DNA of 44,857 nt from a virus. The DNA lies in the UHGV virus genome UHGV-0186980. The stretch is one strand, 5' to 3'. This document shows, in pieces, positions 1-21,081 of the stretch. The position numbers and the translations under genes were made by a program. The notes under the pieces were generated by a model. The model did not search any database. It saw only the letters and a list, made by a program, of their open reading frames with translations, and was not told the origin of the DNA. Numbering within the stretch: the stretch's first letter is position 1; the number at the start of each line of letters is the position of its first letter.

Positions 1-3000
1 AGCCCGTTTTCCAGCGCCGTCGTCCGGTTCCCGATGCTGGACAACGTATCGCCCTGCTGAGTGACTTTCGTGGTCAGGGTATCCACTGCTGACGCGGTGG
101 CATCGGCGATTTTCTGTGCGCGGTTCGCTGCGGTGACGTTGCGCAGATGCCAGTCTGCTGCATACCAGACCGTACCAAAGGGTGAACTCTGGTTAACCTG
201 CAGGAAGGGGCGCAGGAAATTCGTGTCAGACGGCACCGTAAAGCGCCATGTTGCGCGCTTCCAGGCCGCCGTGGTTTTCGTGTTACCGCCAGAAAGTCTC
301 GCTTTAACCCCTTCCGTCGCTGAGGTGCCGCTGGCGATATAGAGATTAAAATCGGCCTGACCGGCGCCGCAGGCTACCAGGGCCGACATCTCGAAGACAT
401 CACCCGGAGTGACAGCAATGTTGTTTATTTTTGGGACATGATCGCGGCCTGCCAGACGAACCACGTACGCAAACGGGCAATCCCCGGGCACGCCAGCAGC
501 GCCGGATGATACGACGTCATACCCCATGCGGTCGTAAGAAGGATCAAATGCCGGGTTAGGTATATAGTCATCCCCGGCTGCTTTTGCGGCGCTAATTGAG
601 CTGTTGAGGGAAGTGATATTACTGTTCGCTGCAGTCAGGCCACTTTCCGTCTTCTCCACTCGCCCGGTCAGTGACGTCAGCGCGCTCTGATCCGCCTTTT
701 TACTCACATTCGAGTTCGTCGTGGTCAGGTCATTCTGCAGCTTTGTGATTGCCTGGCTGTGGCTGGCCAGTTTCCCTTCCGCTGAGTCAACGCGACTGGT
801 CAGGTCAGTCACGGCAGAGGCATTTGCCTTCTTCGACACCCCGGTCGACGAAAAAACGTCGACTTTACGGATATACAGACGCGCACTGTTTGACGGTACC
901 CAGCCCCCGGCGGCAAACCGCAGATAGACATAATTCCCGGTAAAGTTTTCCGGAATGGTCAGCTCCACGGTTTTCGTCTGCCAGCTGGTCGTCACGCCAC
1001 TCAGCCACGGGGATTCTGAGGATAGCCAGGCGACAGGATTGCCCAAATCAGTTATCACACCAACGGTATCAGACGATACGCTGTTCATCGTTTCCGATGT
1101 TTTGTACTCAAATGAGACGGTAAGCGTCAGCCCGGCCTCAGCAGGGATACGCGTGACGTTGGCAACCCGAACAGAGCCGGTTGTCGTTCTCAGCGCTTTT
1201 TCACCTGCATCATACGTGAATGCCGAGCCGGTACCGGAGTTCTCCCAGAACGACAGATCCACATCCATGCCGCCGTTACTAATCAGGCTCCCTTCAGCCA
1301 GGGTGTTTTTCAGCATCGTCAGCTGGCCAGACTGTGTGGTCAGGTTGCCTTCCGTCGCGGATACCCGGTTGGTTAACGCCGTGACCGCGCTCGCATCGGC
1401 CTTTTTACTGACGTTTGAATTGGTTGTCGTCAGGTCGTTCTGCAGTTTAGCGATCGCGCTGCCCTGGCTGGTCAGCGTTTTATCCTGCTGGCTGACGCTG
1501 GACTGCAGGCCCGTGATGGCGTTGCTGTTTGCGGCCACGCCCGACTCTGCTTTACCGACGCGGTTAGACAGCGAGGTCAGCGAATTCCCCTGGCTGGTTA
1601 ACGTAGTGCCCTGCTGTTCAACCTTTTGCGTGAGGGACTGCAGCGCGGTTGCATCGGCTTTTTTACCCAGACTGGTTTCCAGCCCGCTGATTTTGCTGGC
1701 CTGTGCGCTTTGTGCGGTCGACAGGGAACTCAGCTCCTCCGCCACCGAGGATTTATTCTCGTTGAACTGCGTCTGCAGCGATTCCCGGGCTGTCACCTCT
1801 GCTTTATCAGCAGTGATACGGGCATTCATCTCCTGAAACAACAGGCCAGAGCGCAGGTCTGCCAGATTATTGCTTTCACTCGTCCCCCGCATCTGCGTGG
1901 CCAGCGTGGCTCGCTTATTCGCTTCTGCCGTATCGGCATTCGCACGGGCTGTCGATTCTTCGCGCAATGCTGCAGTGCTGGCTCCCGGCGTCGGTCGACC
2001 CACGGCAATCCAGTCAATGATGATGAAATTATCATCAGACTGATCCACCGTTAAATCGAGGCGAAACTGGACAACCGGCTTGCTGTCATCGCTTCCCCAG
2101 GGAATGTCCTGAATACTGAGAACAGCCCTGCCACTGCTGTCATAATCCGGCTCTGCGACGGTCAGCATGCGACTGTCGTTGAACGACTGACCTTCATAGC
2201 GCCAGCGGATTTGACCACTCCACGCGGGCGTCCCCGTTTTCTTAAGACGCAGTTTCAGAAAGCGGTACGCTGAGCCACTGATACTGATTCCAGGAGATGT
2301 AATGTAAGCATCTGTCGCATGGTTTGCCGGTCTCAGCCAGCCGTTTTCAACAACCGAAGGCGTGCCGCCGTTAGATGTCCAGCCTTCCCGGTCGTTATCA
2401 AAGTACCAGATAGCCTGGCTGTCAAACTGCTCCCCGGTTCCCGCCGAAATCTGAGCCATCTGTGTGGCCAGAGAATCATTCACATTCTGGATGATTTGCT
2501 GTGTCGACTCGATAGCTGCAACACGCTCGTTTTTTTCATTCAGCAGCTGGTCTGCCGCCTGCGCCGCTTTCGCGTTGACGTCCGCAATGCGGTCGGCAGT
2601 CTCCTGTTTTACCGCTTTGTCCCAGCCTGTATTCGCCTGGGCGATGGACTGTTTCAGACTGTTTTCAACCGTCTGCAGCTGGGATTTTAACGCAGCATCC
2701 CCTTCGGCCAGGGTTTTGTTAACGTCAGCGATCTGCTGGTCAACGGAGGCATTAATATCGCTCACGGCATCGGTGATGCTCTTGTTGACTGCCGTGATAT
2801 TGTCACTGAGCGTCTGATTTACGCTGTTGATATTCTCCGTTATCGACTTGTTGACCGCCTCTATCTGCCCGTCAACCTGCTGGCGGATCTCAGACGCGGA
2901 ATCATCAATACTCTGGTTAATATCGGTGACCTGCTGCGCGACTTCTTCACGAATAGCATCGGCGGTTTTTGTCAGCTCCTTGTGGGTCTCCTCAATATCC

Positions 3001-5510
3001 CGCTGGGCTTCCTGCCAGGCTTCCGTATCCTTAATCGCATCGGTCAGCTTGTCGTAATACTCACCGATATCGTCGCTGGCCATCCCCTGCACCCAGGCGG
3101 TCCACGGGCTTTCATTGCCGATACGATCAACGATCCGCGCGCGGTACCAGAATATCGCCGCAATCTGCAGGCCCATCTGCTGATACGTTTTACCCGGATA
3201 CGCCACATCAGACAGCGCCATCGCCCCGTTGCCGTTGGGATTAGGACTGTACTGCAGCTCGGTTTTCTGCGTATCGCCGCTCCCCTCCGGGAACTCCCAG
3301 TTCAGCTGCACGCCATGCAGCAGGGAAGTGGTGGTCAGCGCCAGCGGTGCCGACGGCAAACCGATTTTTCCGGTCAGCGTTTTCTCTTCTGAGTATGCCC
3401 AGCCGCTGGAGACCTCTGCAGCGTTGATCGCCCGGACACGGGCCAGATAACGACCGGCGTAAATGCCGCTGACCTCGAACGAGGTGGTCGAGCTGCGCGG
3501 CACGTTAATCCAGTTACCGTCATTACGTCGCCACTGCGCTTCATACGAAATCGCATCTTTCACCGCATTCCAGTGCACCTGCATCGTTTCAACGCTGATG
3601 CCCTGATTCACCACAGAATACGAGCTGATGACGATATTTTCCGGCGGTGACTGGTTCCCCGGAGGAATAACGCTTATCGGGCGCTGGTCGATGATCGCGC
3701 CGGTATCGATACGCGGAAATTTATCCGGGTCGTGGGCCACGCCGGTGATTGTATACGTGGCATTGTTGTTGTCCTTTACCCCAATCACGCGGTACTGCTG
3801 TGTATACAGATCGTCGGACTCAATAACCCATACGCACTCTGTTTCCGGCGTCTCACTGTAGGCCGTAGTGACTGTTATCTGCCGTCGACCGTTGACTGAC
3901 TGGATCGTCCGGGCCTGAGATATGCCTGACGGTAGGTTCAGCTGCAGCCGGTCACCGGCTTTTGCATCAGTATCCCGGTCAAGGGTAATCACCCGGCCAT
4001 TAACCGCACTGATACGCCCGCCGTTCACGCGTCCGGCCAGCAGTTCATCAGCCAGGCCAATGATGTAGCCCGGCTGCGGAATTTTGCCATCGAGACCGAC
4101 ATCGATTTCAACCATGCGGTCTTTGTTGTTGGTCAGAATGCCCCACAGCCCTTTCCTGTGGGCTTCGCTCTGCCGGGTACACCCAATGGCCGTCACTTCG
4201 AGCTGGTTAAAGCTGTAGCGGGAAACCAGCTCCGGGACGAACGCCGGTTCCATCGCATCAGCATACGCATTCGCCGGGTCGGACCAGGAGACCAGCGCGT
4301 TGGTGTAGCGGGCCTTGCTTGTGCTGCTCGAATAACGCGGTTTGCCAATAATGTTCGCCCGCGTGTAGTTGAAATCAACATCGCGCGGCATATCCGCCTG
4401 CACAACAATCTGCTCACCGCTCCAGCAGGTCATTCCCCGGAAAATAGCCGCAAAGTCACGCAGCACGGTGTAGGCATCATTGCGTTCCTGCACGTAAACG
4501 TTACAGAGATAGCGAGGCTCCATGCCATCGCCGCCCCTGCCATCGGGGACCATCTGATCGCAATACTGCGCAATCTGGTACAGCGTCCATTTAGAGATAT
4601 TCGCGCTGGTCAGACGGTTGCCGAGGCCAAACCGGTCTGAAACAACGATATCGTAATAAATCCATGCCGGGTTATCCGTCCAGGCCCATTTAAACCCGCC
4701 GGTCCAGGTGCCGGTATACTCGCGGCTCTCCGGGTTGTAGTTATCAGGAACGCGGATCACGCGCCCGCGTGGCTCACAGGAAATTTGCGGGATGGAACCA
4801 TTAAACTGGCTGGAGTCGAACTCGATATAGAGCAGCGCGGTATGCGGATAGCGCAGCTTCGCGTCGATTACTTCTGTGTAGCTCTGTAACGTCATCACAT
4901 CGCCGATTTTGACGCTGTTGGCGTCCGGCGATACTTTCCGCAGGCGGAGCGTCCATGTGCTCCCCGCTTGCGGCAGGTCGATGCGGTGGCTGCGCTCATA
5001 GCCGGAAGTGGTTTTCCCGGTAACCGCCGTTTCCAGCACGGTCTGCCATGCACCGCCATCTGTCTGCAAATCGATGGCGTATTTAACCGTGTTGCCCACC
5101 ACGTCACCATCATCTTCCTGCTTCATCAGGGACGGCCACTTCAGACGGACGCGGACGGCAGATAGCTGAGTATTTGTAAACGTATGGCTCCAGGCGGTTT
5201 CGCTGGATATTTCTGTTCCGACGCTGATTTCATTTTCAGTGCCGGGAATGCCTTGAATATATTTTTGTGCCTGTGTTCCGGGACGAAATTCCCAGGCCAC
5301 GCCGGAAAAGTTCTCTGACCCGTCGGCATTTAATAGCGGGGTACCATCGAGATAAATATCCTTGCCCGTTAATTCACCTGCAAATTCTCCCTCGCCCAGC
5401 GCGATGAGAATTTTGGCTTTTGCTACGGACTGTAAATCATCCGGCTGCTCCGTCGGCGTGCGCTGGCTTGAGCTGCCACCTTTGCGCCCTTTGATTATGT
5501 TATTTGCCAT
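1..5510 (-). CDS. J: Host specificity / central tail fibre protein J-like, with long C-terminal fibre-repeat extension; 3' end truncated by window
   Basis: ATG at 5510-5508, N-terminus MANNIIKGRKGGSSSQRTPTEQ resembles lambda J; same frame checked open at 2040-2099 and at 3-119; absent from ORF track, consistent with an edge-truncated ORF. Antisense ORFs in the track (955..1836+ etc.) are Ser/Val/Ala-rich junk. Confidence 0.75.
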   Translation of the reverse strand, partial: MANNIIKGRKGGSSSQRTPTEQPDDLQSVAKAKILIALGEGEFAGELTGKDIYLDGTPLLNADGSENFSGVAWEFRPGTQAQKYIQGIPGTENEISVGTEISSETAWSHTFTNTQLSAVRVRLKWPSLMKQEDDGDVVGNTVKYAIDLQTDGGAWQTVLETAVTGKTTSGYERSHRIDLPQAGSTWTLRLRKVSPDANSVKIGDVMTLQSYTEVIDAKLRYPHTALLYIEFDSSQFNGSIPQISCEPRGRVIRVPDNYNPESREYTGTWTGGFKWAWTDNPAWIYYDIVVSDRFGLGNRLTSANISKWTLYQIAQYCDQMVPDGRGGDGMEPRYLCNVYVQERNDAYTVLRDFAAIFRGMTCWSGEQIVVQADMPRDVDFNYTRANIIGKPRYSSSTSKARYTNALVSWSDPANAYADAMEPAFVPELVSRYSFNQLEVTAIGCTRQSEAHRKGLWGILTNNKDRMVEIDVGLDGKIPQPGYIIGLADELLAGRVNGGRISAVNGRVITLDRDTDAKAGDRLQLNLPSGISQARTIQSVNGRRQITVTTAYSETPETECVWVIESDDLYTQQYRVIGVKDNNNATYTITGVAHDPDKFPRIDTGAIIDQRPISVIPPGNQSPPENIVISSYSVVNQGISVETMQVHWNAVKDAISYEAQWRRNDGNWINVPRSSTTSFEVSGIYAGRYLARVRAINAAEVSSGWAYSEEKTLTGKIGLPSAPLALTTTSLLHGVQLNWEFPEGSGDTQKTELQYSPNPNGNGAMALSDVAYPGKTYQQMGLQIAAIFWYRARIVDRIGNESPWTAWVQGMASDDIGEYYDKLTDAIKDTEAWQEAQRDIEETHKELTKTADAIREEVAQQVTDINQSIDDSASEIRQQVDGQIEAVNKSITENINSVNQTLSDNITAVNKSITDAVSDINASVDQQIADVNKTLAEGDAALKSQLQTVENSLKQSIAQANTGWDKAVKQETADRIADVNAKAAQAADQLLNEKNERVAAIESTQQIIQNVNDSLATQMAQISAGTGEQFDSQAIWYFDNDREGWTSNGGTPSVVENGWLRPANHATDAYITSPGISISGSAYRFLKLRLKKTGTPAWSGQIRWRYEGQSFNDSRMLTVAEPDYDSSGRAVLSIQDIPWGSDDSKPVVQFRLDLTVDQSDDNFIIIDWIAVGRPTPGASTAALREESTARANADTAEANKRATLATQMRGTSESNNLADLRSGLLFQEMNARITADKAEVTARESLQTQFNENKSSVAEELSSLSTAQSAQASKISGLETSLGKKADATALQSLTQKVEQQGTTLTSQGNSLTSLSNRVGKAESGVAANSNAITGLQSSVSQQDKTLTSQGSAIAKLQNDLTTTNSNVSKKADASAVTALTNRVSATEGNLTTQSGQLTMLKNTLAEGSLISNGGMDVDLSFWENSGTGSAFTYDAGEKALRTTTGSVRVANVTRIPAEAGLTLTVSFEYKTSETMNSVSSDTVGVITDLGNPVAWLSSESPWLSGVTTSWQTKTVELTIPENFTGNYVYLRFAAGGWVPSNSARLYIRKVDVFSSTGVSKKANASAVTDLTSRVDSAEGKLASHSQAITKLQNDLTTTNSNVSKKADQSALTSLTGRVEKTESGLTAANSNITSLNSSISAAKAAGDDYIPNPAFDPSYDRMGYDVVSSGAAGVPGDCPFAYVVRLAGRDHVPKINNIAVTPGDVFEMSALVACGAGQADFNLYIASGTSATEGVKARLSGGNTKTTAAWKRATWRFTVPSDTNFLRPFLQVNQSSPFGTVWYAADWHLRNVTAANRAQKIADATASAVDTLTTKVTQQGDTLSSIGNRTTALENG

Positions 5511-5520
5511 ATCGCGTCCA

Positions 5521-5546
5521 TAAAAAAAGCCACCGCAAGGTGGCCT
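5521..5546 (-). terminator. Intrinsic terminator-like hairpin between I and J (GCCACC-GCAA-GGTGGC followed by T-run on minus strand)
   Basis: 6-bp GC stem, 4-nt loop, 7 A on plus strand = U-run for minus-strand transcripts; 12 nt upstream of J ATG. Confidence 0.5.
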
Positions 5547-5573
5547 GTACTGGAGGAATTACTGACTGATTAT

Positions 5574-6173
5574 TTATTGCTGGTCTTCGACGTATATTCC
5601 TGCGGAAATAATCGCGCCGCCAATTCGCCGCTTACCATAAAGCAAACCAACGGGATAACCCTGTGAGGCGGTATTTGTTACACCGCCAAAGGCATAGCTG
5701 GCTTTATTCTCGGGAGATTCTCTGCGGGCTAGACCTCCGGGCTGAGGGGAAAGCATCTGGACGACGCCGCCTAGCATCATGGCTGCGCCGCTGGTCATAA
5801 GGCTTGCAGCCAGTGGAGAAGCCGTCCCGCCCGAAACATACGTCATTACCGCGCCCACAACGACCAGCACTGCGCCAAGAATCGTTTGAAGAATTCCGGC
5901 CTTTTTACTACCAATGACGACAGGAACGATGCGGACTACTTCTCCTGTAGCAGGAAATCCCAAATCATCCTTACCAATATTCTTCTTGCCCCGGAAAACA
6001 GCAAAGGTCAGTCCCTGTTCCTTGCTGTTAAGCATGAATTTTTCGAACCCAGGAATGGTCGCCGCTAATGCGGCCCCCGCTTCATGAATTGTGCTAATTA
6101 AACGATAGTGGAACCTGCCAAAGGTTTTTCCCAAAACGCCAGAAAGCTCTATTCGTGTCATGGTTTCTTGCAT
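5574..6173 (-). CDS. I: Tail assembly protein I
   Basis: C-terminal half (MMLGGVVQMLSPQ, PVGLLYGKRRIGGAIIS) matches lambda gpI as remembered; position between K and J. Confidence 0.8.
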   Translation of the reverse strand: MQETMTRIELSGVLGKTFGRFHYRLISTIHEAGAALAATIPGFEKFMLNSKEQGLTFAVFRGKKNIGKDDLGFPATGEVVRIVPVVIGSKKAGILQTILGAVLVVVGAVMTYVSGGTASPLAASLMTSGAAMMLGGVVQMLSPQPGGLARRESPENKASYAFGGVTNTASQGYPVGLLYGKRRIGGAIISAGIYVEDQQ

Positions 6174-6218
6174 ATATATTCCATTTAAAAACCCGGTTAA
6201 GCCTAGTTTTAGTGTTAT

Positions 6219-6623
6219 TTACTGTCCGCATAGCTTACGTATAGCCATGTACCTAATAGTATCGGCCTCATCACGAACGTATACTTTACTGGATAAATAA
6301 TACTTTGGTGACATAAATGGCAATAATGTAGGCTCAGCAACCAGTGTTATAGCAAAGGGGGTCGGTCCGTTATAGGCACCAAAACTATTTCTCCCGTTAA
6401 CTTTCCCGATTATGCAATATGCGCCATTTCCAATATCTCTATCATTTATTTCTCTTGTTACCAAATCAGTAAATTCGGCACTATCAGGATCTTTCATTAT
6501 CCTTTTAATTTCTTTCTTCGCGATATCAGTAATCTGATCATTACCTGGCTTACAGCCTGCCAGGCAAATAGCGCATAAAAATACAGTTAAAAAATTCCTC
6601 ACTTGCTTCTCCTTTTCAGTCAA
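6219..6623 (-). CDS. Small lipoprotein moron (signal peptide with lipobox LAGC); possible superinfection-exclusion protein
   Basis: N-terminus ...RNFLTVFLCAICLAGCKPG; AT-rich insert between K and I; possible GTG start near 6603. Confidence 0.55.
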   Translation of the reverse strand: MTEKEKQVRNFLTVFLCAICLAGCKPGNDQITDIAKKEIKRIMKDPDSAEFTDLVTREINDRDIGNGAYCIIGKVNGRNSFGAYNGPTPFAITLVAEPTLLPFMSPKYYLSSKVYVRDEADTIRYMAIRKLCGQ

Positions 6624-6668
6624 AAACTTAAAGTCCCTTGTAGGATAAACCTGAATATGAAGAGAAGG

Positions 6669-7379
6669 CTAACACAGAGAGTGATGGCGAACGATTTTCA
6701 TCGTTCGGTCTAACCAGTACCCGCCATACGGCACTCGCTGGCTGAGGTGGCCATAGAGATGGTGCAGCAGCATGTTCCCTTCCAGCAGAATCCCGGCATG
6801 GTTCCACTTATCTGCCTGCACCTGCATGATGACCATATCGCCCGGCTGCGGCGGGCCATCAAATTCACGGAACCCGCATTCGTACCAGCAATCATGGTAG
6901 AAGTTATCCGGATAATCGTTTTCCCACCAGTGATAGTCGACACGGTAGTCATGCAGCTCGATGCCGTGGGTCTGCCGAAAATAACTCATCACCAGCCCCC
7001 AACAGTCGTAATGGCCAAGCACGAACGGTCGCTCGATGAGCGGCAGCTCACCCCTTGGATGGATGGTGCGGAGATCGCCTTCCGGCCAACTGATGATATG
7101 CCAGGGGAGCAGCGTGGCATCACACTGCGCTTTATCCAGTTCGCTGGGCTGAGTGGTCGCATCCGGATGGCTGTGAACAATACCGATGACCACACCCCAA
7201 TCTTCTACCTCTGCGTAATCTTCTGGAGCCAGGACGAAATTATCATTCGACTCGCTGGCCAGGTTCCTGCAGGGGAAATAGCGCTCAACACGCCCCTTCT
7301 GAGCAAGCAGCCCGCAGGCCTCTCGCGGGTACTCAGACGCAGCATGCGTCTGAATGGCTTTAATCGTTTTCTGACGCAT
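6669..7379 (-). CDS. K: Tail assembly protein K (JAMM/MPN + NlpC/P60-like)
   Basis: HSHP-x7-S-x2-D JAMM motif (IVHSHPDATTQPSELD) and YDCWGLV cysteine motif; position. Confidence 0.85.
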   Translation of the reverse strand: MRQKTIKAIQTHAASEYPREACGLLAQKGRVERYFPCRNLASESNDNFVLAPEDYAEVEDWGVVIGIVHSHPDATTQPSELDKAQCDATLLPWHIISWPEGDLRTIHPRGELPLIERPFVLGHYDCWGLVMSYFRQTHGIELHDYRVDYHWWENDYPDNFYHDCWYECGFREFDGPPQPGDMVIMQVQADKWNHAGILLEGNMLLHHLYGHLSQRVPYGGYWLDRTMKIVRHHSLC

Positions 7380-7380
7380 A

Positions 7381-8136
7381 TCAGCTCCTTATCAACGACG
7401 TGCCAGGGAACCCCCCGAACGGCAGCTCGTTGTTTTCACCAAAGCGCAATTTGCACGCCGAGAGCGTCCCATTGCAGACGTCCTTCGAAGGGTCATCGAC
7501 CGGTTTGTTGTTCTTATCGAAATATTTTGTCCCGGCATAATCACAACCATCGCCGCTGCGGTACTGGTTGCGAATACACCAGGTGCAAATCGAGTGGTAT
7601 TGCCGGGTAGGAATCATTAGCCCCTGCAGGTCCAGCGGGCTTGATAGGGTGAACTCCACCGCTTCATCGGTTTCAAGATTTTTGGCATCGATAAAATACA
7701 GCTGACGCTTTTCCTGCGTAGGGTCTGCGGACGCGTTTCCCTCCGTGAAATTTCGCGCATCGAGATACTGCTTTTGAGTCTCATGTATCGTGATCCGCGC
7801 CTGCGCCATGTCGTCGTAATACAGGCATAGCGCTGTAATTGATCCGTCGATATTGCCCACCCGCAGCGTTGGTTGCGCATCGCTCCCCGAGGTGCTGGAT
7901 TCAATCCCTTCCAGCTCGCACGGCCAGGCTTTATATTCGATACCCTGCCACCAGATACTTTTCGCGGGTAATGCTGCTTCATCCCCACCGGCAGCGATGA
8001 TTTCCTCTGCTGAATGTGGAACGTTATAACCGTGGAAATACAAGACCTCGCCCATATTAAAAGCGCGGCCGTCTATTTCGAACAACCGGATTTCATCACC
8101 CGGCTCCAGTTTCTGGTAATTTGCATTCAGACTCAT
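7381..8136 (-). CDS. L: Minor tail protein L
   Basis: C-terminal Cys cluster (CTWCIRNQYRSGDGCDY ... CNGTLSACKLRF) resembles lambda gpL. Confidence 0.85.
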   Translation of the reverse strand: MSLNANYQKLEPGDEIRLFEIDGRAFNMGEVLYFHGYNVPHSAEEIIAAGGDEAALPAKSIWWQGIEYKAWPCELEGIESSTSGSDAQPTLRVGNIDGSITALCLYYDDMAQARITIHETQKQYLDARNFTEGNASADPTQEKRQLYFIDAKNLETDEAVEFTLSSPLDLQGLMIPTRQYHSICTWCIRNQYRSGDGCDYAGTKYFDKNNKPVDDPSKDVCNGTLSACKLRFGENNELPFGGFPGTSLIRS

Positions 8137-8471
8137 GGTTTAAATCCCTGAATAAAAGTGGCTGAAAGTGAATAATTCCCGCCGCCCATCGGCACGGGCT
8201 TATATTGTTCACAACGGAATAGCCCCGCATCTTCAAGCGGCGGAGTCCACTGAAACGACTTTGTACCTGCATGCCGGTCCAGGAACTGTTTTATTGGTCG
8301 GATATACTCCTCAGTACCGACAAAACTCAACTCCCATTCCTGGGACCGGGTATTTAATCCGTCCCCTGAAACCTGCGTATACCCGTCACCAAATTCCGCC
8401 TTTCTGGTGCGAAACTTCACGGTTTGCGCAGGGTTTACCCGGGGACTCCAAGTGAATATCTCAATGGCCAT
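8133..8471 (-). CDS. M: Minor tail protein M
   Basis: 112 aa, FGDGYTQ and WTPP motifs as in lambda gpM; overlaps L start and H stop. Confidence 0.75.
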   Translation of the reverse strand: MAIEIFTWSPRVNPAQTVKFRTRKAEFGDGYTQVSGDGLNTRSQEWELSFVGTEEYIRPIKQFLDRHAGTKSFQWTPPLEDAGLFRCEQYKPVPMGGGNYSLSATFIQGFKP

Positions 8472-11400
8472 TAGCGTTGTCCTCTTACGGCGCTCCAGAT
8501 AGCGCCACCCGGGCGCATATCCTTCGCCTGCAGCTCACGATATTTTTTCTCGACGAACGACCCAATCTGCTGGCCAAACTCTTCAAACCCTGACGTGCTG
8601 TCAGTCGAGGTTTTGTCGCCAGAAATGGTGATCCAGACTTTTGGCCCTTCAACAGACGCTGAGGGCTGGCCGGATGCTGTCGCCCGGATGCCTGAAAACT
8701 CATCCGCGGCACGCGGCGCAGGTATCATCGGAGCCGCCCCCATTCCGGTGATCCCCTCTGCGCTTGTGCTGAAACCTGTTCCGACAAGACTTTGAATCGT
8801 GGTCAGAAGTGACTGTGTCGCCATATCAATCAGCCCCTTAATGACCGACAGGGCCGGGCCGGAGGACTGTTCACCAATGGCACGGACGCCCAGCGAACCA
8901 TCAGTCCCTCGGGTCAGTGGCATAATGGCCTCTGGACCAGCCTCACCAAATACCCCCGCGCCTTTGGCAAAGGCGAAGAGCTGCGGGGTGTCGTGGATCT
9001 GGTTGCTGTAGGCACTTAATGAAGGGGAATCGTAGACGCCACCTTTTGCGTTGAATTCCACCGTGGCTGCAGCGGCTTCATACGAACCGGACGGCGTATT
9101 TCCACCTCCTGCCGCACCTGCACTTCCTCCGATCGCACCGCCAAAAGCAGAACCGACCATGCCAAAAATACTCTGCAGTGCACTGGAAAGCGCGATACGC
9201 GTGGCAATTTGCGCCAAATCTGAAAGGATTGAAATAGTAAAGCTTTTGAAGCTTCCTTTACCGGTTATGGCAAAGGAAGCGAGGGAGCTTGCCATGCTGT
9301 CAAAGGCACTCGTGGTAAAGCTGGCTATCTGGCTGTTTGCATCCCGCGCATTATCTGTCCAGTTCTTCGCCCCACGCCTGAATCCCGCGCTGTAATCCTG
9401 TTCTGCTCTCAGACGATCCTGCACGCTTTGCTCGGTAATCTGCAGTTCCTGCTGCTTTATCCGCTCCAGATCGGCCAGACGGGCCTGATATTCAGCCGAT
9501 GTGGTATCGATAAAATCTTTCTCCAGCGCAATGCGCCGCTGATTAAAGCGGTTAATAATGGCGTTACGGGCTTCTGCGTCGCTAGCTTCCTGTTCGGAAA
9601 GGTTGTACTTCTCCAGATTCAGAGCAGCTTCGCGCTGCATAGCCTGAGCCTCTTCAGCCCACTTACGGCTTTCAGCCTGATATTTCAGCGAGGTTTTTCG
9701 CAAGACGGCTTCTTTTTCAAGCTGAATATTCGACTGCAGTTGCGCCCGGATCTGGTCCTGCATATTCACCAGGCTTTGCTGGCTTTTGGTCAGGTTTTCA
9801 CCCTTCAGCCCGGAGAGTTTTTCATTAAAGGCGACCAGCTGTCGTTCGGATTCTGTCAACGTATCAGTGGTCTGCGCCTGTTCTTTCAGTACTGCGTTTC
9901 GTTGCAGTGCCTGCTCCAGCATTCGCTGCCCTTCAGTCTCGCCGCTACCAGACTTTTTGGGTTTATCTTTCTTCGTGGCCTTGTCGTATTCATCATTAAT
10001 CCCTTTCAGGATCCGCTGATACTCCTGCGAGCCGGATGCGTAAATGCTGTTATTGAGTTTTTTTATCGCTGCAGCACGCTTTTCTGCTGCGGTACTCCCG
10101 GCATCCATGTAGCTCTTCAGCCCGGCAGCGTTTTTTATACGGTCACTTTGTGCCTCGGCGTATCCTGCTTTGCTTGTAGCGATAAAGCGGCGTGTCTTTT
10201 CGTCAAACTCTTTCTGGTCTTTAGTGAGGAGATCGGTCAAAGCAATGGTTTCACCAAGACTTCCGAGTATCCCCCACTCACGCCCAAGATTTTTTAACTT
10301 ATCAAGATAAGTTTCCGCGTGTGCCGCCAGCTCTTTCAGTTTAAAGCTTTCCGCATCAAGAGCTTGTTCCATGATGAGCTGCGTTGCTTTCGCTGTTTCC
10401 CCTTTATTCGTCAGGCTGATAACCTGTGCGACAATGGATTCATTCAGCGAAATGCCCTGGGCTGTCAGCTGGGCCATCGCATTAAGCGGGTCTCCCTTCA
10501 GGGCAGATATTTTGCTGACCAGATCCTCAGCGTTCCCACCGGCTTCAGCGTAGGCTGTCGCAATAAATGCAACTTCATGCAGCAATGCACCACTGAAACC
10601 ACCGTTTGCCGCAGCGACCACAGCAGAAAGGGAATGTTCTGTACCACCAAGCTGAGCATTGAGGCTTCTCAGTTCAGTGAGAGATAACTGAGCTGACGTT
10701 CTCGTTCCGAGTAGCGCCGCATTCAGTTTTTTTGTTTGCTCCTCGGATTTTTTAAACTCGCTGTAAATCATTGAGCCACCGGCAGCAAGCACCGACAGGC
10801 CAATACCAACAGGTCCACCCAGCAGACTCATCGCCGAACTAAGCGCCCGGCTGCTGGTCGCTGCAATACGCTGGGTCACAGTAAGCTGGGTATTTGCCGC
10901 AGCAGCAGCTTCTGTTGCTGCTGTTAGTGCCGCCTTTCCACCTGTTTCGGCGGCATCAGCGGTCACAACAACCGCTTTGGCGGCTTTTAATTTTTCAAGC
11001 CCGCTGGCCTCAAGACGGTTCGCTTCAATGATCGCCCGCTCATTCTTCAGGTGTTCATCCTGATAGCTGACATTCAGCCCGTACAGCTTATTAACTTCGG
11101 TTTGTTTCGCGTAATACTCGTCCAGCGCAATCGCCTGCTCACGCTGGGCCTGCGCTGCCGCTATCGTCTTTTCAGCGATAGCAGCTTTATTCAGCGCAGA
11201 CTGCCTTTCGGCCTGTGCCGCCGCAATTTGTGCCTTTGCCGCCGACTCCAGTTCGGCAGCTGCCTGACGGGCTGCATCCTGCTGTGTCTTCCAGCCTCCT
11301 GCCGAACTGTCAAGTCGCCCCTTTAAGGTATGAACGGCGGGGATAAGTGCATTAATTATGCTGCTGCTGGCGACATTACTCCCGGCTGCAACTTCATGAA

Positions 11401-11653
11401 GCACGAAGTTCAGTTGGCCAGCACCTCGGGTGGCACCGGCAAACTGATCATCATTAGCACCCTGCACGCCGATTTTTTTTGCGGCCTCGACGGTTTTGGC
11501 TATCGCTGTTGTCAGCTCGTTAGCCTGTGCTGTCGCCTGCTGATTAAATTTTTTACTGGCCTGCCCTGCGTTCTGATATGCCTCGGTAATTTGCGACCGG
11601 AATGCAGCTGAATTCAGATGCAGGGCAACCGATAAGCTGGCTACATCACTCAT
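8471..11653 (-). CDS. H: Tail tape measure protein
   Basis: 1060 aa, Ala/Gln-rich coiled-coil protein downstream of G/T. Confidence 0.85.
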   Translation of the reverse strand: MSDVASLSVALHLNSAAFRSQITEAYQNAGQASKKFNQQATAQANELTTAIAKTVEAAKKIGVQGANDDQFAGATRGAGQLNFVLHEVAAGSNVASSSIINALIPAVHTLKGRLDSSAGGWKTQQDAARQAAAELESAAKAQIAAAQAERQSALNKAAIAEKTIAAAQAQREQAIALDEYYAKQTEVNKLYGLNVSYQDEHLKNERAIIEANRLEASGLEKLKAAKAVVVTADAAETGGKAALTAATEAAAAANTQLTVTQRIAATSSRALSSAMSLLGGPVGIGLSVLAAGGSMIYSEFKKSEEQTKKLNAALLGTRTSAQLSLTELRSLNAQLGGTEHSLSAVVAAANGGFSGALLHEVAFIATAYAEAGGNAEDLVSKISALKGDPLNAMAQLTAQGISLNESIVAQVISLTNKGETAKATQLIMEQALDAESFKLKELAAHAETYLDKLKNLGREWGILGSLGETIALTDLLTKDQKEFDEKTRRFIATSKAGYAEAQSDRIKNAAGLKSYMDAGSTAAEKRAAAIKKLNNSIYASGSQEYQRILKGINDEYDKATKKDKPKKSGSGETEGQRMLEQALQRNAVLKEQAQTTDTLTESERQLVAFNEKLSGLKGENLTKSQQSLVNMQDQIRAQLQSNIQLEKEAVLRKTSLKYQAESRKWAEEAQAMQREAALNLEKYNLSEQEASDAEARNAIINRFNQRRIALEKDFIDTTSAEYQARLADLERIKQQELQITEQSVQDRLRAEQDYSAGFRRGAKNWTDNARDANSQIASFTTSAFDSMASSLASFAITGKGSFKSFTISILSDLAQIATRIALSSALQSIFGMVGSAFGGAIGGSAGAAGGGNTPSGSYEAAAATVEFNAKGGVYDSPSLSAYSNQIHDTPQLFAFAKGAGVFGEAGPEAIMPLTRGTDGSLGVRAIGEQSSGPALSVIKGLIDMATQSLLTTIQSLVGTGFSTSAEGITGMGAAPMIPAPRAADEFSGIRATASGQPSASVEGPKVWITISGDKTSTDSTSGFEEFGQQIGSFVEKKYRELQAKDMRPGGAIWSAVRGQR

Positions 11654-13572: not shown

Positions 13573-13891
13573 GGCGCCCGTCAGCCTCCCCCGTAATGAT
13601 GATCCGGTCAGTTTTACGGTCGATATTCCGGACTGTATAAACCAAGTCTTTTGTCGTGATTTTCCAGTCGATATCGACCACCACGCCCGGATAGACGGTA
13701 AACAGGCAGGTTTCCACCACTTGCTGTTGGTCCATCGTGCGGACTTTTCTTCCCGATACCAGCTCCCGCTTTGCCCAGGCCTTTCCCGATTCAACTAACT
13801 TTTCCGGCAGCGGTTCACCCAACGGCCCACGACCGGATTGCATATAGCCAATCACAATGCGGCAGGTCATTTCTTCCGGTTTAAGACTCAT
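13553..13891 (-). CDS. Head-tail adaptor-like protein
   Basis: 112 aa, position between connector and tail completion genes. Confidence 0.45.
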   Translation of the reverse strand: MSLKPEEMTCRIVIGYMQSGRGPLGEPLPEKLVESGKAWAKRELVSGRKVRTMDQQQVVETCLFTVYPGVVVDIDWKITTKDLVYTVRNIDRKTDRIIITGEADGRHDRTGD

Positions 13892-14208
13892 AGCGTGTCC
13901 TTTAAAGGGAAAAGAAGACTACTTACCGACAACGTTTCCAGCCACTGGCCCCTGAATCCATTCAGATACGCATCGCCGACCAGATACTGCACGGCCAGCC
14001 TGATATCCTCATCTGCCACGAATCCACGGACGGTATCAGGGAGCGCTTGCAGCTCCTCATCACTGGTGACCAGCTTGCAGTTGTAATCACGCTCGATGCT
14101 TCGCTGTGCGGCGTTAACCATTCTCGTGAGCATGGCGTCGTGCTCAGTGAAATCCAGCTCCAGGCGAAGCTGGGTTTTCACATCATCCAATGTCAGTATC
14201 AAAATCAC
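13888..14208 (-). CDS. Head-tail connector (gp6-like); start refined to GTG/TTG near 14208/14202
   Basis: LTLDDVKTQLRLELDFTEHDAMLTRMVNAAQRSIE resembles gp6-like connector proteins; AGGGAG RBS upstream. Confidence 0.5.
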   Translation of the reverse strand: MILILTLDDVKTQLRLELDFTEHDAMLTRMVNAAQRSIERDYNCKLVTSDEELQALPDTVRGFVADEDIRLAVQYLVGDAYLNGFRGQWLETLSVSSLLFPLKDTL

Positions 14209-18616: not shown

Positions 18617-18795
18617 TATTTCTCCCCGCTATTTTTTGCGCTGGCGGATACCGAGCGCGCGATTAAAAAAGACCAAAGCAGACAGAGTATTCCGCCTGTG
18701 ATAAACCCCGCTGCAGGTAATAAAAGCCAGGCTCCGGTAGAAACCAATAAAGCCCCGGCAAGGCCAATAATGAAACTCAGAATTGTGATTAGCAC
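18616..18795 (-). CDS. Possible small membrane protein (59 aa, GTG start), translationally coupled between terminase and portal
   Basis: GTG overlapping terminase 3' end; product VLITILSFIIGLAGALLVSTGAWLLLPAAGFITGGILCLLWSFLIARSVSASAKNSGEK; TAATG overlap with portal start; below track length threshold. Confidence 0.3.
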   Translation of the reverse strand: MLITILSFIIGLAGALLVSTGAWLLLPAAGFITGGILCLLWSFLIARSVSASAKNSGEK

Positions 18796-20510
18796 GCTAC
18801 GTCTTCCTCATCATAGATAGATTTGATGACTGCGCTGTTCAACATGGCGCGCCCTATCCCCATCATTAAACCAACCGCACCATCAATCTTGTTTTGTTTC
18901 CCCTCCTTTGTCGGACGGACAATATCGTCGCTGCCCGGCAAATACCGACCTACAACGTTCTGGATGCACCAGTTCATGATGGGATTTCCGTCATGATGGA
19001 ATCGCCCCGACGCCAGTGCAGCTTCAATCTCTCTCATGGGGTCGCTCATATGGGTGAAGTTCTGTCTGATTTCGACGGGTTCCAGTCCCTCTTCCTCAAG
19101 CAGATGGCGCAAGGAAGTGGCACCATAAGGATCGATAGGACACTGGGCGATTTTCACGTTCTGACGTAACTGCAGGATGGATTCGAAAATCAGCCGATAA
19201 TCTACTTCTGCGCCCTCAGTTGGAATTAAAACGCCCTGTCCCACAAAGGACTGATAACGTTCAGAGGTATGCTTAAGCTTCGGGTCGACAGAATAGATGG
19301 TGTCTTCAGGCACCCAGAACATAGGGCCTACGCAGTAGAAATGGGTAATACCTTCTATATCGCGACGAAAAACAGGAATAACGGCGTTAAGATCGACCTT
19401 TGACGCTAGATCTATTCCCAGCCAGCATTCCTCATCGGCAAAATCAGACAATTTCAGACTCTTGTCAGCAGCAGCCATCCATTTCTGTAAATCGTAAAAG
19501 ACTGTTTTTGCGCTAACCCAACGATTAAAATGCTTGGTCAGGATCTTGTTGGTCTGACTGGGGTTCGATATCGCCAGTAACTGTTTTGCGCGAAGAAAGT
19601 GCTCTTTTACCGATATCCCATAATTGGGATTGGCTTTAATGAGCGCTTCCGGCTGAGTCCAGTCATCATCATCATCCAGACCATAGATGATGCCGAAAAT
19701 GCCCTCATTCTCTTCCCCATTGCGGGTTTTGCGCAGGATCTCCACCACCTGTTCCCGCTTCTCATAGCACGGCGATGTAATGTCATAACCGGCTGTCGTG
19801 ATGATGAGCGTAATGGGTTGCTCGCGAGCCCCCATCCCTGTCGTCATCGTGGTATACAGGGCATCGGTAATATGTTCGTGGTATTCGTCGATAATGGCGC
19901 ATGACGGCGAATCACCGTCACCGGGATCGCCAATCACGGGTGCAAATATGGAGCCATCCGGGCGAGTCATTTTTTTTGCCCAGGGCTTTATAGAAAATTT
20001 CTGCCGCAATGCGGGCAGCTTTTTCACCATCAACAACGCCGGAGCAAACACTTTCCAGGCCTGCTTTTCGGTCGTGGCGCCGCAGTACACTTCCGCACCA
20101 TGTTCACCGTCAGCGCAGAACATATAATTGCCAACGGCAGCGGCAATTGCTGATTTGCCGTTCTTTCTAGGAACTTCGATATAGATCTCAGTGAACCGCC
20201 GCAGGCCACTTTTTTTATTTACCCAGCCAAACGGAACACCCAGGGCAAACTTTTGCCAGGGTTCAAATTCTATCCTGAGTTTTCGGCGGGCCCATTCCCC
20301 TGCGGTATGTGGCATTTTTTGTGCAAAACGAAGAAATCGCTCTGCCTTATTTTTATCGAACCGGTAAGGCCAGTTCGGATCCTTCGCGCGTTCCAGGTCA
20401 TCAAGATGTCGCTTGCAGGCAAGAATAGTTAACTGACATGCCAGAATCTTCCCGCCAACGATATCCCGTGCATACTGGTTCGCCGCATTGACGTTCGGAT
20501 ATGTGGCCAT
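18789..20510 (-). CDS. Terminase large subunit
   Basis: 573 aa; ATPase N-terminal region and nuclease C-terminal region; upstream of portal. Confidence 0.85.
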   Translation of the reverse strand: MATYPNVNAANQYARDIVGGKILACQLTILACKRHLDDLERAKDPNWPYRFDKNKAERFLRFAQKMPHTAGEWARRKLRIEFEPWQKFALGVPFGWVNKKSGLRRFTEIYIEVPRKNGKSAIAAAVGNYMFCADGEHGAEVYCGATTEKQAWKVFAPALLMVKKLPALRQKFSIKPWAKKMTRPDGSIFAPVIGDPGDGDSPSCAIIDEYHEHITDALYTTMTTGMGAREQPITLIITTAGYDITSPCYEKREQVVEILRKTRNGEENEGIFGIIYGLDDDDDWTQPEALIKANPNYGISVKEHFLRAKQLLAISNPSQTNKILTKHFNRWVSAKTVFYDLQKWMAAADKSLKLSDFADEECWLGIDLASKVDLNAVIPVFRRDIEGITHFYCVGPMFWVPEDTIYSVDPKLKHTSERYQSFVGQGVLIPTEGAEVDYRLIFESILQLRQNVKIAQCPIDPYGATSLRHLLEEEGLEPVEIRQNFTHMSDPMREIEAALASGRFHHDGNPIMNWCIQNVVGRYLPGSDDIVRPTKEGKQNKIDGAVGLMMGIGRAMLNSAVIKSIYDEEDVAC

Positions 20511-20944
20511 CAGTCAAACTCATCAAATTCATTCCCGTCATCGTCCTGATCATTTTTGCCGCTGGTCATTCGGATACGGCTGAGCGGATCTAACCCCAGT
20601 AGCGAGCCCAGACGGGCTATCTGGGAAACAGAGTCATTTCTGACGTTTACGGCAGGATGTTTTTTTAACCCTCCCATTTCGCTTTCAGTTGTCAGCCCGT
20701 TAGCCAGTAATTTTTCGGCTTCGAGCATCAGATGGAAGGCGTTGCAGTAAGCCAGAAGTAAAGGGGCATCTTCAAGCTCAAAAACGCCTCTTTCGATCAG
20801 GATTTTACTTTGAGTCTTCCATATTCTTATAGCCGCCTCCCCCATCAACTCAGCCGGGGGCGCGATTCGGGTCAGTTTACTTTTTTGCCCGGTGGGTAAA
20901 ACGGGTTTTCTTCCCCCTCCAGACGATCTAATACCAGCAGCCAT
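20510..20944 (-). CDS. Terminase small subunit (P27-like)
   Basis: 144 aa, acidic C-terminus, overlaps TerL start (ATGA). Confidence 0.6.
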   Translation of the reverse strand: MAAGIRSSGGGRKPVLPTGQKSKLTRIAPPAELMGEAAIRIWKTQSKILIERGVFELEDAPLLLAYCNAFHLMLEAEKLLANGLTTESEMGGLKKHPAVNVRNDSVSQIARLGSLLGLDPLSRIRMTSGKNDQDDDGNEFDEFD

Positions 20945-21081
20945 AACTCCTCTTTTGATAGGTGAAACCTGCCGGAAAAAAGATCCTTATTTCTGGCGTG
21001 TAAAAATGTCCTTCAAGCGGCAGTCCCAAAGCGCGAAAGGGGTCAGGGATTTGATCCCCCCTACCCCTGGCGGCAGCTGCC

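What the first reader, a model, noticed from the sequence alone, without database searches (positions are those of the whole stretch)
1..5510. Unusually long J-like tail tip protein with fibre-type repeat blocks and embedded beta-rich domains
The J-like ORF is open for more than 1836 codons and runs off the window, whereas lambda J is about 1130 aa. The extension, roughly the first 2100 nt of the window, contains repeated DNA blocks (around 690-870, 1390-1680; motif ...CCTTTTTACT(G/C)AC(G/A)TT(T/C)GA(A/G)TT...GTCAGGTC(G/A)TTCTGCAG) encoding repeated ...NSNVSKKADASAVTALTNRV...-type heptad segments like side-tail-fibre proteins, separated by non-repetitive segments. This looks like a J-Stf fusion that may define host range.
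Basis: seen in the sequence. Interest (0 to 1): 0.45.

Follow-up and report, generated by a model that had tools for sequence, protein, structure and literature searches.

The report
Giant phiKO2-type tail-tip fibre gene
This is the first 1836 codons of a giant version of the phage lambda tail-tip protein J, a type known from Klebsiella phage phiKO2, in which a long helical shaft studded with sugar-binding-like domains sits inside J rather than being a fused side-fibre gene.

Summary
On the minus strand an ORF starts at ATG 5510 and stays open for 1836 codons to the window edge. The quoted DNA motifs each occur exactly twice, 705 nt apart.

The gene is a homologue of Klebsiella phage phiKO2 gene 21 (3433 aa, annotated "similar to lambda J"). 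It sits in a lambda-type M-L-K-I-J tail-tip module of an integrated mosaic prophage.

- Residues 1-~850 are the J hub and FN3 region.
- After that come proline-free helical segments alternating with three unrelated ~150-aa beta domains.
- B1 matches the carbohydrate-binding domain of the roseophage R4C megatron protein. The B2 and B3 models have a CBM4/16/22-type fold.

In the full-length relatives examined (3264 and 3433 aa, and 4233-4797-aa database proteins) the J tip-fibre domain (PF09327) follows this array. The array is therefore an insertion at about lambda J residue 851/854, not a J-Stf fusion. There is no similarity to lambda Stf or Tfa.

The window gene is a mosaic: one domain cassette is phiKO2-type and the rest is K. 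oxytoca NBRC 105695-type, with breakpoints in the helical linkers.

The family is already in the literature and databases. This is a new mosaic member, and its function and structure are still untested.

The parts
3..5510 (-). 5' part (1836 codons) of a giant J-type tail-tip fibre gene. The start is ATG 5510 and the 3' end lies beyond the left window edge.
   Evidence: Open frame. phrog_2589, 2505 bits. 85% aa identity to phiKO2 gp21 1-1652. 97% DNA identity to the K. oxytoca NBRC 105695 gene.
3054..5510 (-). J core, aa 1-~819: hub domains plus FN3 domains. FNIII-A_GpJ is aa 91-217 = nt 4860-5240; Phage-tail_3 is aa 342-503 = nt 4002-4487; fn3 is aa 638-698 = nt 3417-3599.
   Evidence: Pfam. 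PDB phmmer: F2-pyocin fibre 25vf E 4.8e-270 over aa 3-843; lambda gpJ 8iyk aa 12-844 = J 4-840. blastp to lambda J 12-855 = 4-851.
2445..3053 (-). CC1, aa ~820-1022: proline-free helical segment with 11-residue periodicity, starting where the F2-pyocin alpha-helical shaft starts.
   Evidence: Composition and periodicity (3.67-residue period, z about 20). Apolipoprotein-type 11/22-mer hits. A three-stranded shaft from residue 819 in the pyocin homologue.
1986..2435 (-). B1, aa ~1026-1175: beta domain related to the carbohydrate-binding domain of the R4C megatron protein. It belongs to the phiKO2-type cassette.
   Evidence: Profile A3 vs PDB: 8gtc_M residues 489-627, E 1.7e-12. Residues 482-629 are named the carbohydrate-binding domain in PMC10276861. 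98-100% DNA identity to phiKO2 but 40-73% to L006.
1305..1973 (-). CC2, aa ~1180-1402: proline-free Ala/Ser/Thr/Leu-rich repeats (~42-aa units, ...NSNVSKKADASAVTALTNRV...). It contains the recombination breakpoint at aa ~1221-1235 (nt ~1806-1850) and reader motif copy 2 (1400-1445).
846..1295 (-). B2, aa ~1406-1555: beta-sandwich domain with a CBM4/CBM16-like fold.
   Evidence: AF2 model pLDDT 76.5. Foldseek PDB top hits CBM4-2 and CBM16, E 3e-7, TM about 0.6. Pfam CBM_4_9 only E 0.094.
585..845 (-). CC3, aa ~1556-1642: a second copy of the helical repeat. It contains reader motif copy 1 (695-740).
   Evidence: 57-61% aa identity to CC2 segments.
126..575 (-). B3, aa ~1646-1795: beta-sandwich domain with a CBM16/4/22-like fold. 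It belongs to a small family found almost only inside giant tail-tip proteins.
3..122 (-). CC4, aa ~1797-1836: start of the next helical linker, cut by the window edge.
   Evidence: Related to aa 1283-1316 at 58%. Window nt 1 corresponds to L006 nt 11532, inside a 300-nt, 90% internal repeat of that gene.
5574..6173 (-). Tail assembly protein I homologue, immediately upstream of J.
   Evidence: Pfam Lambda_tail_I.
6669..11653 (-). The rest of the tail-tip module: K (6669-7379), L (7381-8136), M (8133-8471) and the tape measure protein (8471-11653).
   Evidence: Pfam NLPC_P60 + Prok-JAB, Phage_tail_L, Phage_min_tail, Tape_meas_lam_C. 80-85% DNA identity to phiKO2-group phages.

Best explanation
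The region encodes the N-terminal ~56% of a phiKO2 gp21-type giant tail-tip protein. This is the single J homologue of an integrated, mosaic Klebsiella prophage.

Shown:
- Residues 1-~850 are homologous to the lambda J hub and FN3 region.
- After that, proline-free helical segments alternate with three mutually unrelated ~150-aa beta domains.
- B1 matches the domain that the authors of the roseophage R4C structure name 'carbohydrate-binding' in the megatron protein. The B2 and B3 models match CBM4/16/22 folds.
- In complete relatives, seven such domains are followed by the J tip-fibre domain (PF09327) and a C-terminal region.
- The window gene is a recombinant whose B1 cassette is phiKO2-type and whose remainder is K. 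oxytoca NBRC 105695-type, with breakpoints inside the helical linkers.

Inferred:
- Three copies form the tail-tip hub, as in lambda and the F2 pyocin.
- Their helical segments form one long three-stranded shaft. The window part has about 550 helical residues, roughly 80 nm if fully extended. The closest complete relative has roughly 1000, about 150 nm.
- The shaft displays trimers of sugar-binding-like modules along its length and carries the J-type tip and receptor-binding end distally.
- The modules probably bind capsule or other surface polysaccharide reversibly, so they contribute to host range.
- The conserved linker repeats serve as recombination sites that let modules be swapped, duplicated or lost.
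For: Identity and context:
- Searches cover the ORF, Pfam, phrog_2589, 93% DNA identity to phiKO2 gene 21 over nt 1393-5600, and the M-L-K-I-J order.

Insertion rather than fusion:
- phiKO2 gp21 aligns to lambda J on both sides of the array, and PF09327 lies at 3162-3293.
- L006 J (3264 aa) has lambda J 854-1000 at 2986-3135 and PF09327 at 2977-3107.
- Database proteins of 4797 and 4233 aa have FNIII-A_GpJ at the N-terminus, CBM_4_9 in the middle and PF09327 near the C-terminus.

Helical shaft:
- None of the four helical segments (553 residues in all) contains a proline, and CC1 has a 3.67-residue periodicity with z about 20.
- The best solved homologue of the J core (F2 pyocin) has a three-stranded alpha-helical shaft with an insertion domain starting at residue 819.

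Beta domains:
- B1 vs megatron 489-627, E 1.7e-12.
- B2 by Foldseek, E 3e-7 to CBM4-2.
- Relatives are named 'carbohydrate binding domain-containing' by their sources, and some pass Pfam CBM_4_9.

Module shuffling:
- Identity profiles show nt 1851-2525 at 98-100% to phiKO2 and 40-73% to L006, and nt <=1805 at 98-100% to L006 and 56-91% to phiKO2.
- The same domain families occur at different positions in different proteins.

Biological plausibility:
- Induced Klebsiella prophages were reported to infect in a capsule-type-specific way while no convincing depolymerase was found, and two prophages in that study carried a ~4200-aa gp21 homologue (PMC7784688).
Against: - The 3' ~1450 codons are not in the window, so the C-terminal J tip domain is inferred from relatives and not seen here.
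- B2 fails the Pfam CBM_4_9 threshold (13.5 vs 25.9 bits), and B1 and B3 had no Pfam match at all. Fold matches have modest TM (0.5-0.65) and 10-20% identity. No sugar-binding residues were examined and no binding data exist.
- Electron microscopy of the related phage NAR688 describes a central tail spike and multiple long fibres, not an obvious single ~150-nm central fibre. The shaft may therefore be folded or flexible, or the fibres seen may be something else.
Confidence: 0.8

Rival explanations
1. J-Stf fusion: a lambda-J-like gene fused end to end to a side-tail-fibre gene, so that the side fibre is carried on J.
For: - The extension is fibre-like: repeats, helical segments and beta domains.
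- The closest complete relative has no separate fibre gene after J; umuD/umuC-like genes and then host genes follow.
Against: - There is no similarity to lambda orf-401, orf-314 or Tfa; the best E is 0.28 over 25 aa.
- No side-tail-fibre PHROG is hit.
- The J tip-fibre domain lies after the array in phiKO2, L006, P0124 and P0130, so the array is internal to J.
- KpLi5 and 48ST307 still carry a separate fibre gene downstream of the giant J.
Confidence: 0.05
2. Artefact: a sequencing or assembly error (lost stop, frameshift, or collapse of repeats) has merged two or more genes into one long ORF.
For: - The gene contains internal repeats, and almost all database homologues of the array are partial proteins on 1-4 kb contigs, so it does break assemblies.
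- Two phage records show the gene split: 48ST307 as 3193 + 551 aa, and Kpn74 as 3088 aa plus fragments.
Against: - Independent complete records have uninterrupted ORFs of 3433 aa (phiKO2), 3792 aa (KpLi5) and 3264 aa (K. oxytoca NBRC 105695).
- The window ORF is collinear with them, at 98-100% identity to one or the other over its whole length.
- The other five frames carry 34-119 stops each in nt 1-6000.
Confidence: 0.03
3. The beta domains and shaft are mainly structural or docking elements, for example attachment sites for separate side fibres as on the F2-pyocin shaft, or spacers that let the tip reach through a thick capsule. On this reading they are not glycan-binding modules themselves.
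For: [quoted passage not shown]
- NAR688 virions show multiple long fibres.
- B2 is below the Pfam CBM threshold, B1 and B3 had no Pfam match, and no ligand residues were checked.
Against: - All three domains point to carbohydrate-binding folds from independent evidence.
- Seven to nine different modules per protein, rapid cassette exchange and restriction to a host genus with very many capsule types fit ligand diversity better than a conserved docking role.
- The closest complete relative has no fibre gene downstream that could dock there.
Confidence: 0.15

Closest known systems
Klebsiella phage phiKO2 gp21 (YP_006601, 3433 aa, 'similar to lambda J protein') and its PHROG family phrog_2589
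   Same: - 98-100% aa identity over aa 1-1250, and collinear over aa 1-1642.
- The same M-L-K-(moron)-I-J gene order.
- The same alternation of helical linkers and beta domains.
- phrog_2589 hit at 2505 bits.
   Different: - From aa ~1370 the modules differ: B2 is about 20% identical to the phiKO2 domain at that position, and B3 corresponds to phiKO2 residues 2326-2482 at 57%.
- phiKO2 is a linear-plasmid (telomere) phage. The window element has a lambda-type integrase and lambdoid early genes.
J-type ORF of a prophage in Klebsiella oxytoca NBRC 105695 (NZ_BCZK01000001, locus L006 6074-15868, 3264 aa)
   Same: - 97% DNA identity across the tail module.
- 98-100% identity over window nt 3-1805.
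- It supplies the likely missing part: four more beta domains, PF09327 at 2977-3107, and a C-terminal region.
   Different: - The B1 cassette (window nt 1851-2525) is only 40-73% identical.
- There is an 18-aa indel in CC1.
Phage lambda gpJ (1132 aa; PDB 8iyk)
   Same: The hub and FN3 region are homologous: aa 12-855 = J 4-851 at 31% identity. The position after gpI is the same.
   Different: - Lambda goes almost directly from residue ~851 into the beta-structured central straight fibre and the LamB-binding end.
- Here a helical/CBM-like array of more than 980 aa (about 2100-2300 aa in complete relatives) intervenes.
- The NCBIfam lambda_TipJ score is far below its cut-off (441 vs 1950 bits).
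F2-type pyocin central fibre protein BHP1 (PDB 25vf; PMC13455828)
   Same: - It is the best solved match of the J core (E 4.8e-270, aa 3-843 = 2-847).
- After the two FN3 domains it has a three-stranded alpha-helical shaft with an insertion domain starting at residue 819. CC1 starts at the same point here.
   Different: The pyocin protein is 1204 aa with one insertion domain. Here the shaft is several-fold longer and carries many different beta domains. Whether side fibres dock on it is unknown.
Carbohydrate-binding domain of the roseophage R4C megatron protein (PDB 8gtc_M, residues 482-629)
   Same: B1 is homologous at the sequence-profile level (E 1.7e-12). Both are accessory domains of the tail-tip protein of a siphophage.
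   Different: In megatron the domain sits on the periphery of the baseplate body, not on a coiled-coil shaft. The rest of the proteins did not align outside this domain in the PDB searches.
Acinetobacter phage ME3 gp104 (over 5300 aa, with several galactose-binding-like domains and DUF1983; PMC11058221)
   Same: The same general design: a very long tail protein with multiple galactose-binding-like domains and a DUF1983 segment.
   Different: It has a different host and lineage. It was not aligned here, so the relation is by architecture only.

Membership tests
Lambda J / TipJ tail-tip proteins | N-terminal hub and FN3 region homologous to lambda gpJ | tested here: met
   Pfam FNIII-A_GpJ E 8e-47 and Phage-tail_3 E 3.9e-12. 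8iyk_J E 4.5e-114. blastp 12-855 = J 4-851.
Lambda J / TipJ tail-tip proteins | Gene lies at the end of the tape measure-M-L-K-I tail-tip module | tested here: met
   Pfam hits for I, K, L, M and the tape measure protein in ORFs 5574-11653.
Lambda J / TipJ tail-tip proteins | C-terminal central straight fibre domain (PF09327 / DUF1983) and receptor-binding end | not testable with these tools
   The 3' end lies outside the window. The domain is present in phiKO2 gp21 (3162-3293), L006 J (2977-3107), P0124 and P0130.
Lambda J / TipJ tail-tip proteins | Score above the NCBIfam lambda_TipJ (NF049904) cut-off, i.e. a close lambda-J equivalent | tested here: not met
   440.8 bits against a cut-off of 1950. 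It is a J homologue but not a lambda-J equivalent.
phiKO2 gp21-type giant tail-tip fibres (phrog_2589) | Full-length collinearity with gp21-type proteins, and a J core followed by alternating helical linkers and beta domains | tested here: met
   phrog_2589 at 2505 bits. 85% identity over gp21 1-1652. Architecture comparison.
Lambda Stf-type side tail fibres | Sequence similarity to Stf (orf-401 / orf-314) | tested here: not met
   blastp and phmmer found no significant match.
Lambda Stf-type side tail fibres | Tfa-type assembly chaperone gene downstream | not testable with these tools
   The downstream region is outside the window. In L006, J is followed by umuD/umuC-like genes and a host BLUF-EAL gene.
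CBM4/9/16/22-type carbohydrate-binding modules (galactose-binding-domain-like fold) | Beta-sandwich fold of this type | tested here: met
CBM4/9/16/22-type carbohydrate-binding modules (galactose-binding-domain-like fold) | Sequence membership in Pfam CBM_4_9 (PF02018) | tested here: not met
   B2 scores 13.5 bits against a cut-off of 25.9; B1 and B3 have no hit. Other modules in relatives do pass.
CBM4/9/16/22-type carbohydrate-binding modules (galactose-binding-domain-like fold) | Demonstrated glycan binding, or conserved ligand-binding residues | not tested
   No ligand-site analysis was done and no experiment exists.
Three-stranded alpha-helical shaft of J homologues (F2 pyocin type) | Helical segment starting right after the FN3 domains, with coiled-coil periodicity | tested here: met
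   CC1 starts at about aa 820, has no proline, and has a 3.67-residue periodicity with z about 20. The pyocin shaft starts at residue 819.
Three-stranded alpha-helical shaft of J homologues (F2 pyocin type) | Trimeric parallel coiled coil | not testable with these tools
   No multimer prediction was available.

The most novel reading that the evidence does not exclude
The exchangeable CBM-like modules on the giant J shaft could be the capsule-type readers of depolymerase-less temperate Klebsiella phages. Each module would bind a different capsule or O-antigen structure. The array would set which capsule types a phage can adsorb to, and the conserved helical linker repeats would be a built-in recombination system that re-sorts modules between prophages and phage-plasmids. 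The shaft might additionally dock side fibres, as in the F2 pyocin.
Probability: 0.3. Interest if true: 0.6.

Novelty: new member of a known kind. Interest (0 to 1): 0.3.

Why it matters
Klebsiella has very many capsule types, and capsule type governs which phages can infect a strain. Virulent Klebsiella phages handle this with depolymerase tailspikes. How temperate siphophages achieve capsule-type specificity without convincing depolymerases is not settled (PMC7784688). Giant J proteins carrying seven or more different sugar-binding-like modules are an obvious candidate.

The three-way comparison made here shows whole-module exchange with breakpoints in the helical linkers. That gives a concrete, testable model for how host range is re-sorted.

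There is also a practical point. The gene's internal repeats fragment short-read assemblies, so this host-range determinant is mostly recorded as 'partial hypothetical proteins'.

None of this makes the window's gene a new kind of system. The family has been annotated since phiKO2 and has been noted in integrated prophages.

Tried and rejected
- An exact 60-mer from the window's left end found nothing in genome contigs. The source genome is not among the species representatives. The protein-based scan then found a 97% relative.
- The original phiKO2 genome paper (guessed id PMC355964) is not held. What it says about gene 21 could not be checked, so nothing is cited from it.
- blastp of the protein against itself returned only the diagonal. 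It was replaced by fragment-vs-whole searches.
- hhalign between profiles of B1, B2 and B3 gave no significant similarity (probability <=2.7%). They are treated as three families, not as repeats of one domain.
- Pfam on the isolated domains gave nothing for B1 and B3 and a sub-threshold CBM_4_9 hit for B2.
- PDB profile searches for B2 and B3 gave nothing significant. Fold assignment therefore rests on AF2 models.
- Lambda Stf and Tfa comparison was negative.
- Telomere-phage identity for the whole element was rejected. Only the head and tail genes are phiKO2-like, and the rest is lambdoid with an integrase.
- No tRNA genes are present.
- Literature searches found no structural or functional study of gp21-type giant J proteins. 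This is absence in the held library only.
Full report
**1. What is in the sequence**

The long reading frame is on the minus strand. The ATG is at 5510 and an in-frame stop lies upstream at 5561. There is no stop down to nt 3, giving 1836 codons from the ATG. The other five frames of nt 1-6000 carry 34-119 stops.

They are 705 nt apart, and none is expected in shuffled sequence. They lie inside a longer diverged repeat, 634-770 vs 1339-1475 at 70% identity. Further related copies occur at 12-59 / 1569-1616 and 1462-1490 / 1588-1616.

At protein level the helical segments 1252-1405, 1556-1644 and 1800-1836 are related, at up to 61% identity.

**2. Identity and context**

- Pfam finds FNIII-A_GpJ (aa 91-217), Phage-tail_3 (342-503) and fn3 (638-698).
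- PHROGs gives phrog_2589 ('tail protein', profile length 3686) at 2505 bits, and phrog_31 'central tail fiber J'.
- Window nt 1393-5600 is 93% identical to gene 21 of Klebsiella phage phiKO2. That gene is 10,302 nt (3433 aa) and is annotated 'similar to lambda J protein'.
- The ORFs upstream are homologues of I, K, L, M and the tape measure protein. The head and tail region is 80-85% identical to phiKO2-group phages.
- The rest of the window is lambdoid, with replication, Q and methylase genes and a lambda-type integrase at 41984-43165.

The element is therefore an integrated mosaic prophage, not a telomere phage.

**3. Architecture**

Solved structures match only the first ~845 residues:

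| PDB entry | Protein | E-value | Query range |
|---|---|---|---|
| 25vf | F2-pyocin fibre | 4.8e-270 | aa 3-843 |
| 8iyk | lambda gpJ | 4.5e-114 | aa 12-844 = J 4-840 |

Beyond that, composition separates proline-free helical segments from globular beta-rich segments:

| Type | Segment | Residues |
|---|---|---|
| Helical | CC1 | ~820-1022 |
| Helical | CC2 | ~1180-1402 |
| Helical | CC3 | ~1556-1642 |
| Helical | CC4 | ~1797-1836+ |
| Beta-rich | B1 | ~1026-1175 |
| Beta-rich | B2 | ~1406-1555 |
| Beta-rich | B3 | ~1646-1795 |

CC1 has a strong 11/3-residue periodicity (z about 20) and resembles 11/22-mer apolipoprotein repeats. It is a hendecad-type segment, not a heptad one.

In the F2 pyocin, the closest solved homologue of the J core, a three-stranded alpha-helical shaft with an insertion domain starts at residue 819, directly after the FN3 domains (PMC13455828). 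CC1 starts at the same place here. The trimeric state of the window protein is inferred and was not tested.

**4. The beta domains**

- Profiles of B1, B2 and B3 are not detectably related to each other.
- The B1 profile matches residues 489-627 of the roseophage R4C megatron protein (8gtc_M, E 1.7e-12). The authors of that structure call residues 482-629 the carbohydrate-binding domain (PMC10276861).
- The AF2 model of B2 (pLDDT 76.5) matches CBM4-2 and CBM16 by Foldseek, E 3e-7, TM about 0.6.
- At sequence level B2 is below the Pfam CBM_4_9 threshold, and B1 and B3 had no Pfam match. Other modules in relatives pass it, and sources name relatives 'carbohydrate binding domain-containing' or 'phage tail tip fiber protein'.
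- The B3 family is small, with 84 representatives among 1.84 billion clusters. It sits almost always in the middle of 2000-4800-aa proteins.

**5. Insertion, not fusion**

phiKO2 gp21 aligns with lambda J on both sides of the array: 12-855 = J 4-851 and 3171-3371 = J 854-1065. PF09327 (the J tip-fibre domain) lies at 3162-3293.

The closest complete relative was found by a protein-guided scan of species-representative genomes. It is a prophage of K. oxytoca NBRC 105695 (L006), 97% identical in DNA across the tail module.

- Its J ORF is uninterrupted and 3264 aa long.
- It has seven embedded beta domains.
- Lambda J 854-1000 aligns at 2986-3135, and PF09327 lies at 2977-3107.
- umuD/umuC-like genes and then a host BLUF-EAL gene follow it.

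Proteins of 4797 and 4233 aa have the same ends. Neither the window protein nor gp21 shows similarity to lambda Stf (orf-401, orf-314) or Tfa.

Relative to lambda, a 2100-2300-aa array sits at about J residue 851/854, near the start of the central fibre. By collinearity with L006, window nt 1 corresponds to L006 nt 11532. About 1445 codons of the window gene are therefore missing.

**6. Mosaicism**

| Window nt | Content | Identity to phiKO2 | Identity to L006 |
|---|---|---|---|
| 1851-2525 | B1 with flanking helices | 98-100% | 40-73% |
| 1266-1805 (fine 45-nt scan) | CC2 up to the start of B2 | 56-91% | 98-100% |
| 3-1760 (150-nt bins) | CC2 onward to the window edge | 37-81% | 97-100% |
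| 2526-2660 | part of CC1 | ~100% | ~100% |

The B1 cassette has therefore been exchanged as a unit, with breakpoints at about aa 995 (CC1) and aa 1221-1235 (CC2). B2 is only about 20% identical to the phiKO2 domain at the same position. B3 corresponds to phiKO2 residues 2326-2482 (57%) and KpLi5 residues 2592-2746 (83%).

phiKO2 itself carries two domain pairs (1384-1571 / 2594-2781 and 1694-1860 / 2904-3070) that are 98% identical, which points to a large internal duplication. The same domain families occur at different positions in different proteins.

These internal repeats explain why nearly all database homologues of the array are 'partial' proteins on 1-4 kb contigs. The window edge falls inside a 300-nt, 90% internal repeat of the L006 gene.

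**7. Mechanism**

Shown: a J-type hub region, helical linkers, three CBM-like domains, cassette exchange, and a J tip domain at the far end in relatives.

Inferred:
- Three chains build the tail-tip hub and one long three-stranded shaft.
- The window part has about 550 helical residues, roughly 80 nm if extended. L006 has roughly 1000, about 150 nm.
- The shaft displays trimers of glycan-binding-like modules and carries the J-type receptor-binding end distally.
- The modules would give reversible, multivalent binding to capsule or LPS.

This fits the report that induced Klebsiella prophages infect in a capsule-type-specific way without convincing depolymerases. In the same study two integrated prophages carried a ~4200-aa gp21 homologue (PMC7784688).

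One caveat remains. EM of the related phage NAR688 describes a central spike and multiple long fibres (PMC12042878), which does not obviously match a single 150-nm central fibre. A docking role for the shaft, as in the F2 pyocin, stays possible.

**8. Novelty**

The family is already recorded in several places:
- phiKO2 gp21 and its annotation;
- phrog_2589;
- source names such as 'phage tail tip fiber protein';
- a comparable Acinetobacter phage protein with several galactose-binding-like domains plus DUF1983 (PMC11058221).

The window gene is a new mosaic member of that family. The held literature contains no structural or functional study of the array. The interesting open question is what the modules bind and whether they set capsule tropism, not whether the long ORF exists.

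Noticed in passing
window 6219-6623 (-): A 134-aa ORF lies between the K and I homologues in a low-GC stretch (44.6% GC in 6001-7000). It has a lipoprotein-like N-terminus (...FLCAICLAGC...) and no Pfam hit. phiKO2 has an unrelated lipobox protein (gp19, annotated as a putative moron) at the same position. A 99% identical copy is in the K. oxytoca NBRC 105695 prophage (L006 4959-5360). It looks like a moron slot, possibly for a surface or exclusion lipoprotein.
   Followed up: partly
window 22500-25300: About 2.8 kb with 40-47% GC and no ORF of 90 aa or more, only small ORFs of 40-89 aa on both strands. It lies next to ORFs at 18789-22504 that were not identified here.
   Followed up: no
window 5500-44857: The element is a mosaic. 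Head and tail genes are 80-85% identical to telomere phages of the phiKO2 group. The remainder resembles lambdoid integrating phages (replication, Q and methylase genes) and includes a lambda-type integrase at 41984-43165. No phiKO2 match covered the part of the window beyond the head and tail genes.
   Followed up: partly
window 1-122, and L006 11396-11695 / 13880-14179: The left window edge falls inside a 300-nt internal repeat (90% identity) of the closest full-length gene. Almost all database homologues of the array are partial proteins on 1-4 kb contigs. The gene seems to fragment short-read assemblies routinely, so this host-range gene is under-recorded.
   Followed up: partly
L001 (phiKO2) gene 21, aa 1384-1571 / 2594-2781 and 1694-1860 / 2904-3070: phiKO2 gp21 contains two beta-domain pairs that are 98% identical, consistent with a recent internal duplication of about 480 aa within the array.
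   Followed up: partly
L009 (Limoniibacter endophyticus contig) and L011 (Microbacterium barkeri, 648-nt contig): Segments 77-80% identical to the Klebsiella-type array turned up in assemblies of unrelated genera. One is a 648-nt contig. These are more likely contaminating Klebsiella or phage DNA than real occurrences.
   Followed up: no
L006 15868-19327: In the K. oxytoca NBRC 105695 prophage the giant J gene is followed by umuD-like and umuC-like (IMS family) genes and then a host BLUF-EAL gene. This echoes the umuD/dinI genes that follow gene 21 in phiKO2.
   Followed up: partly
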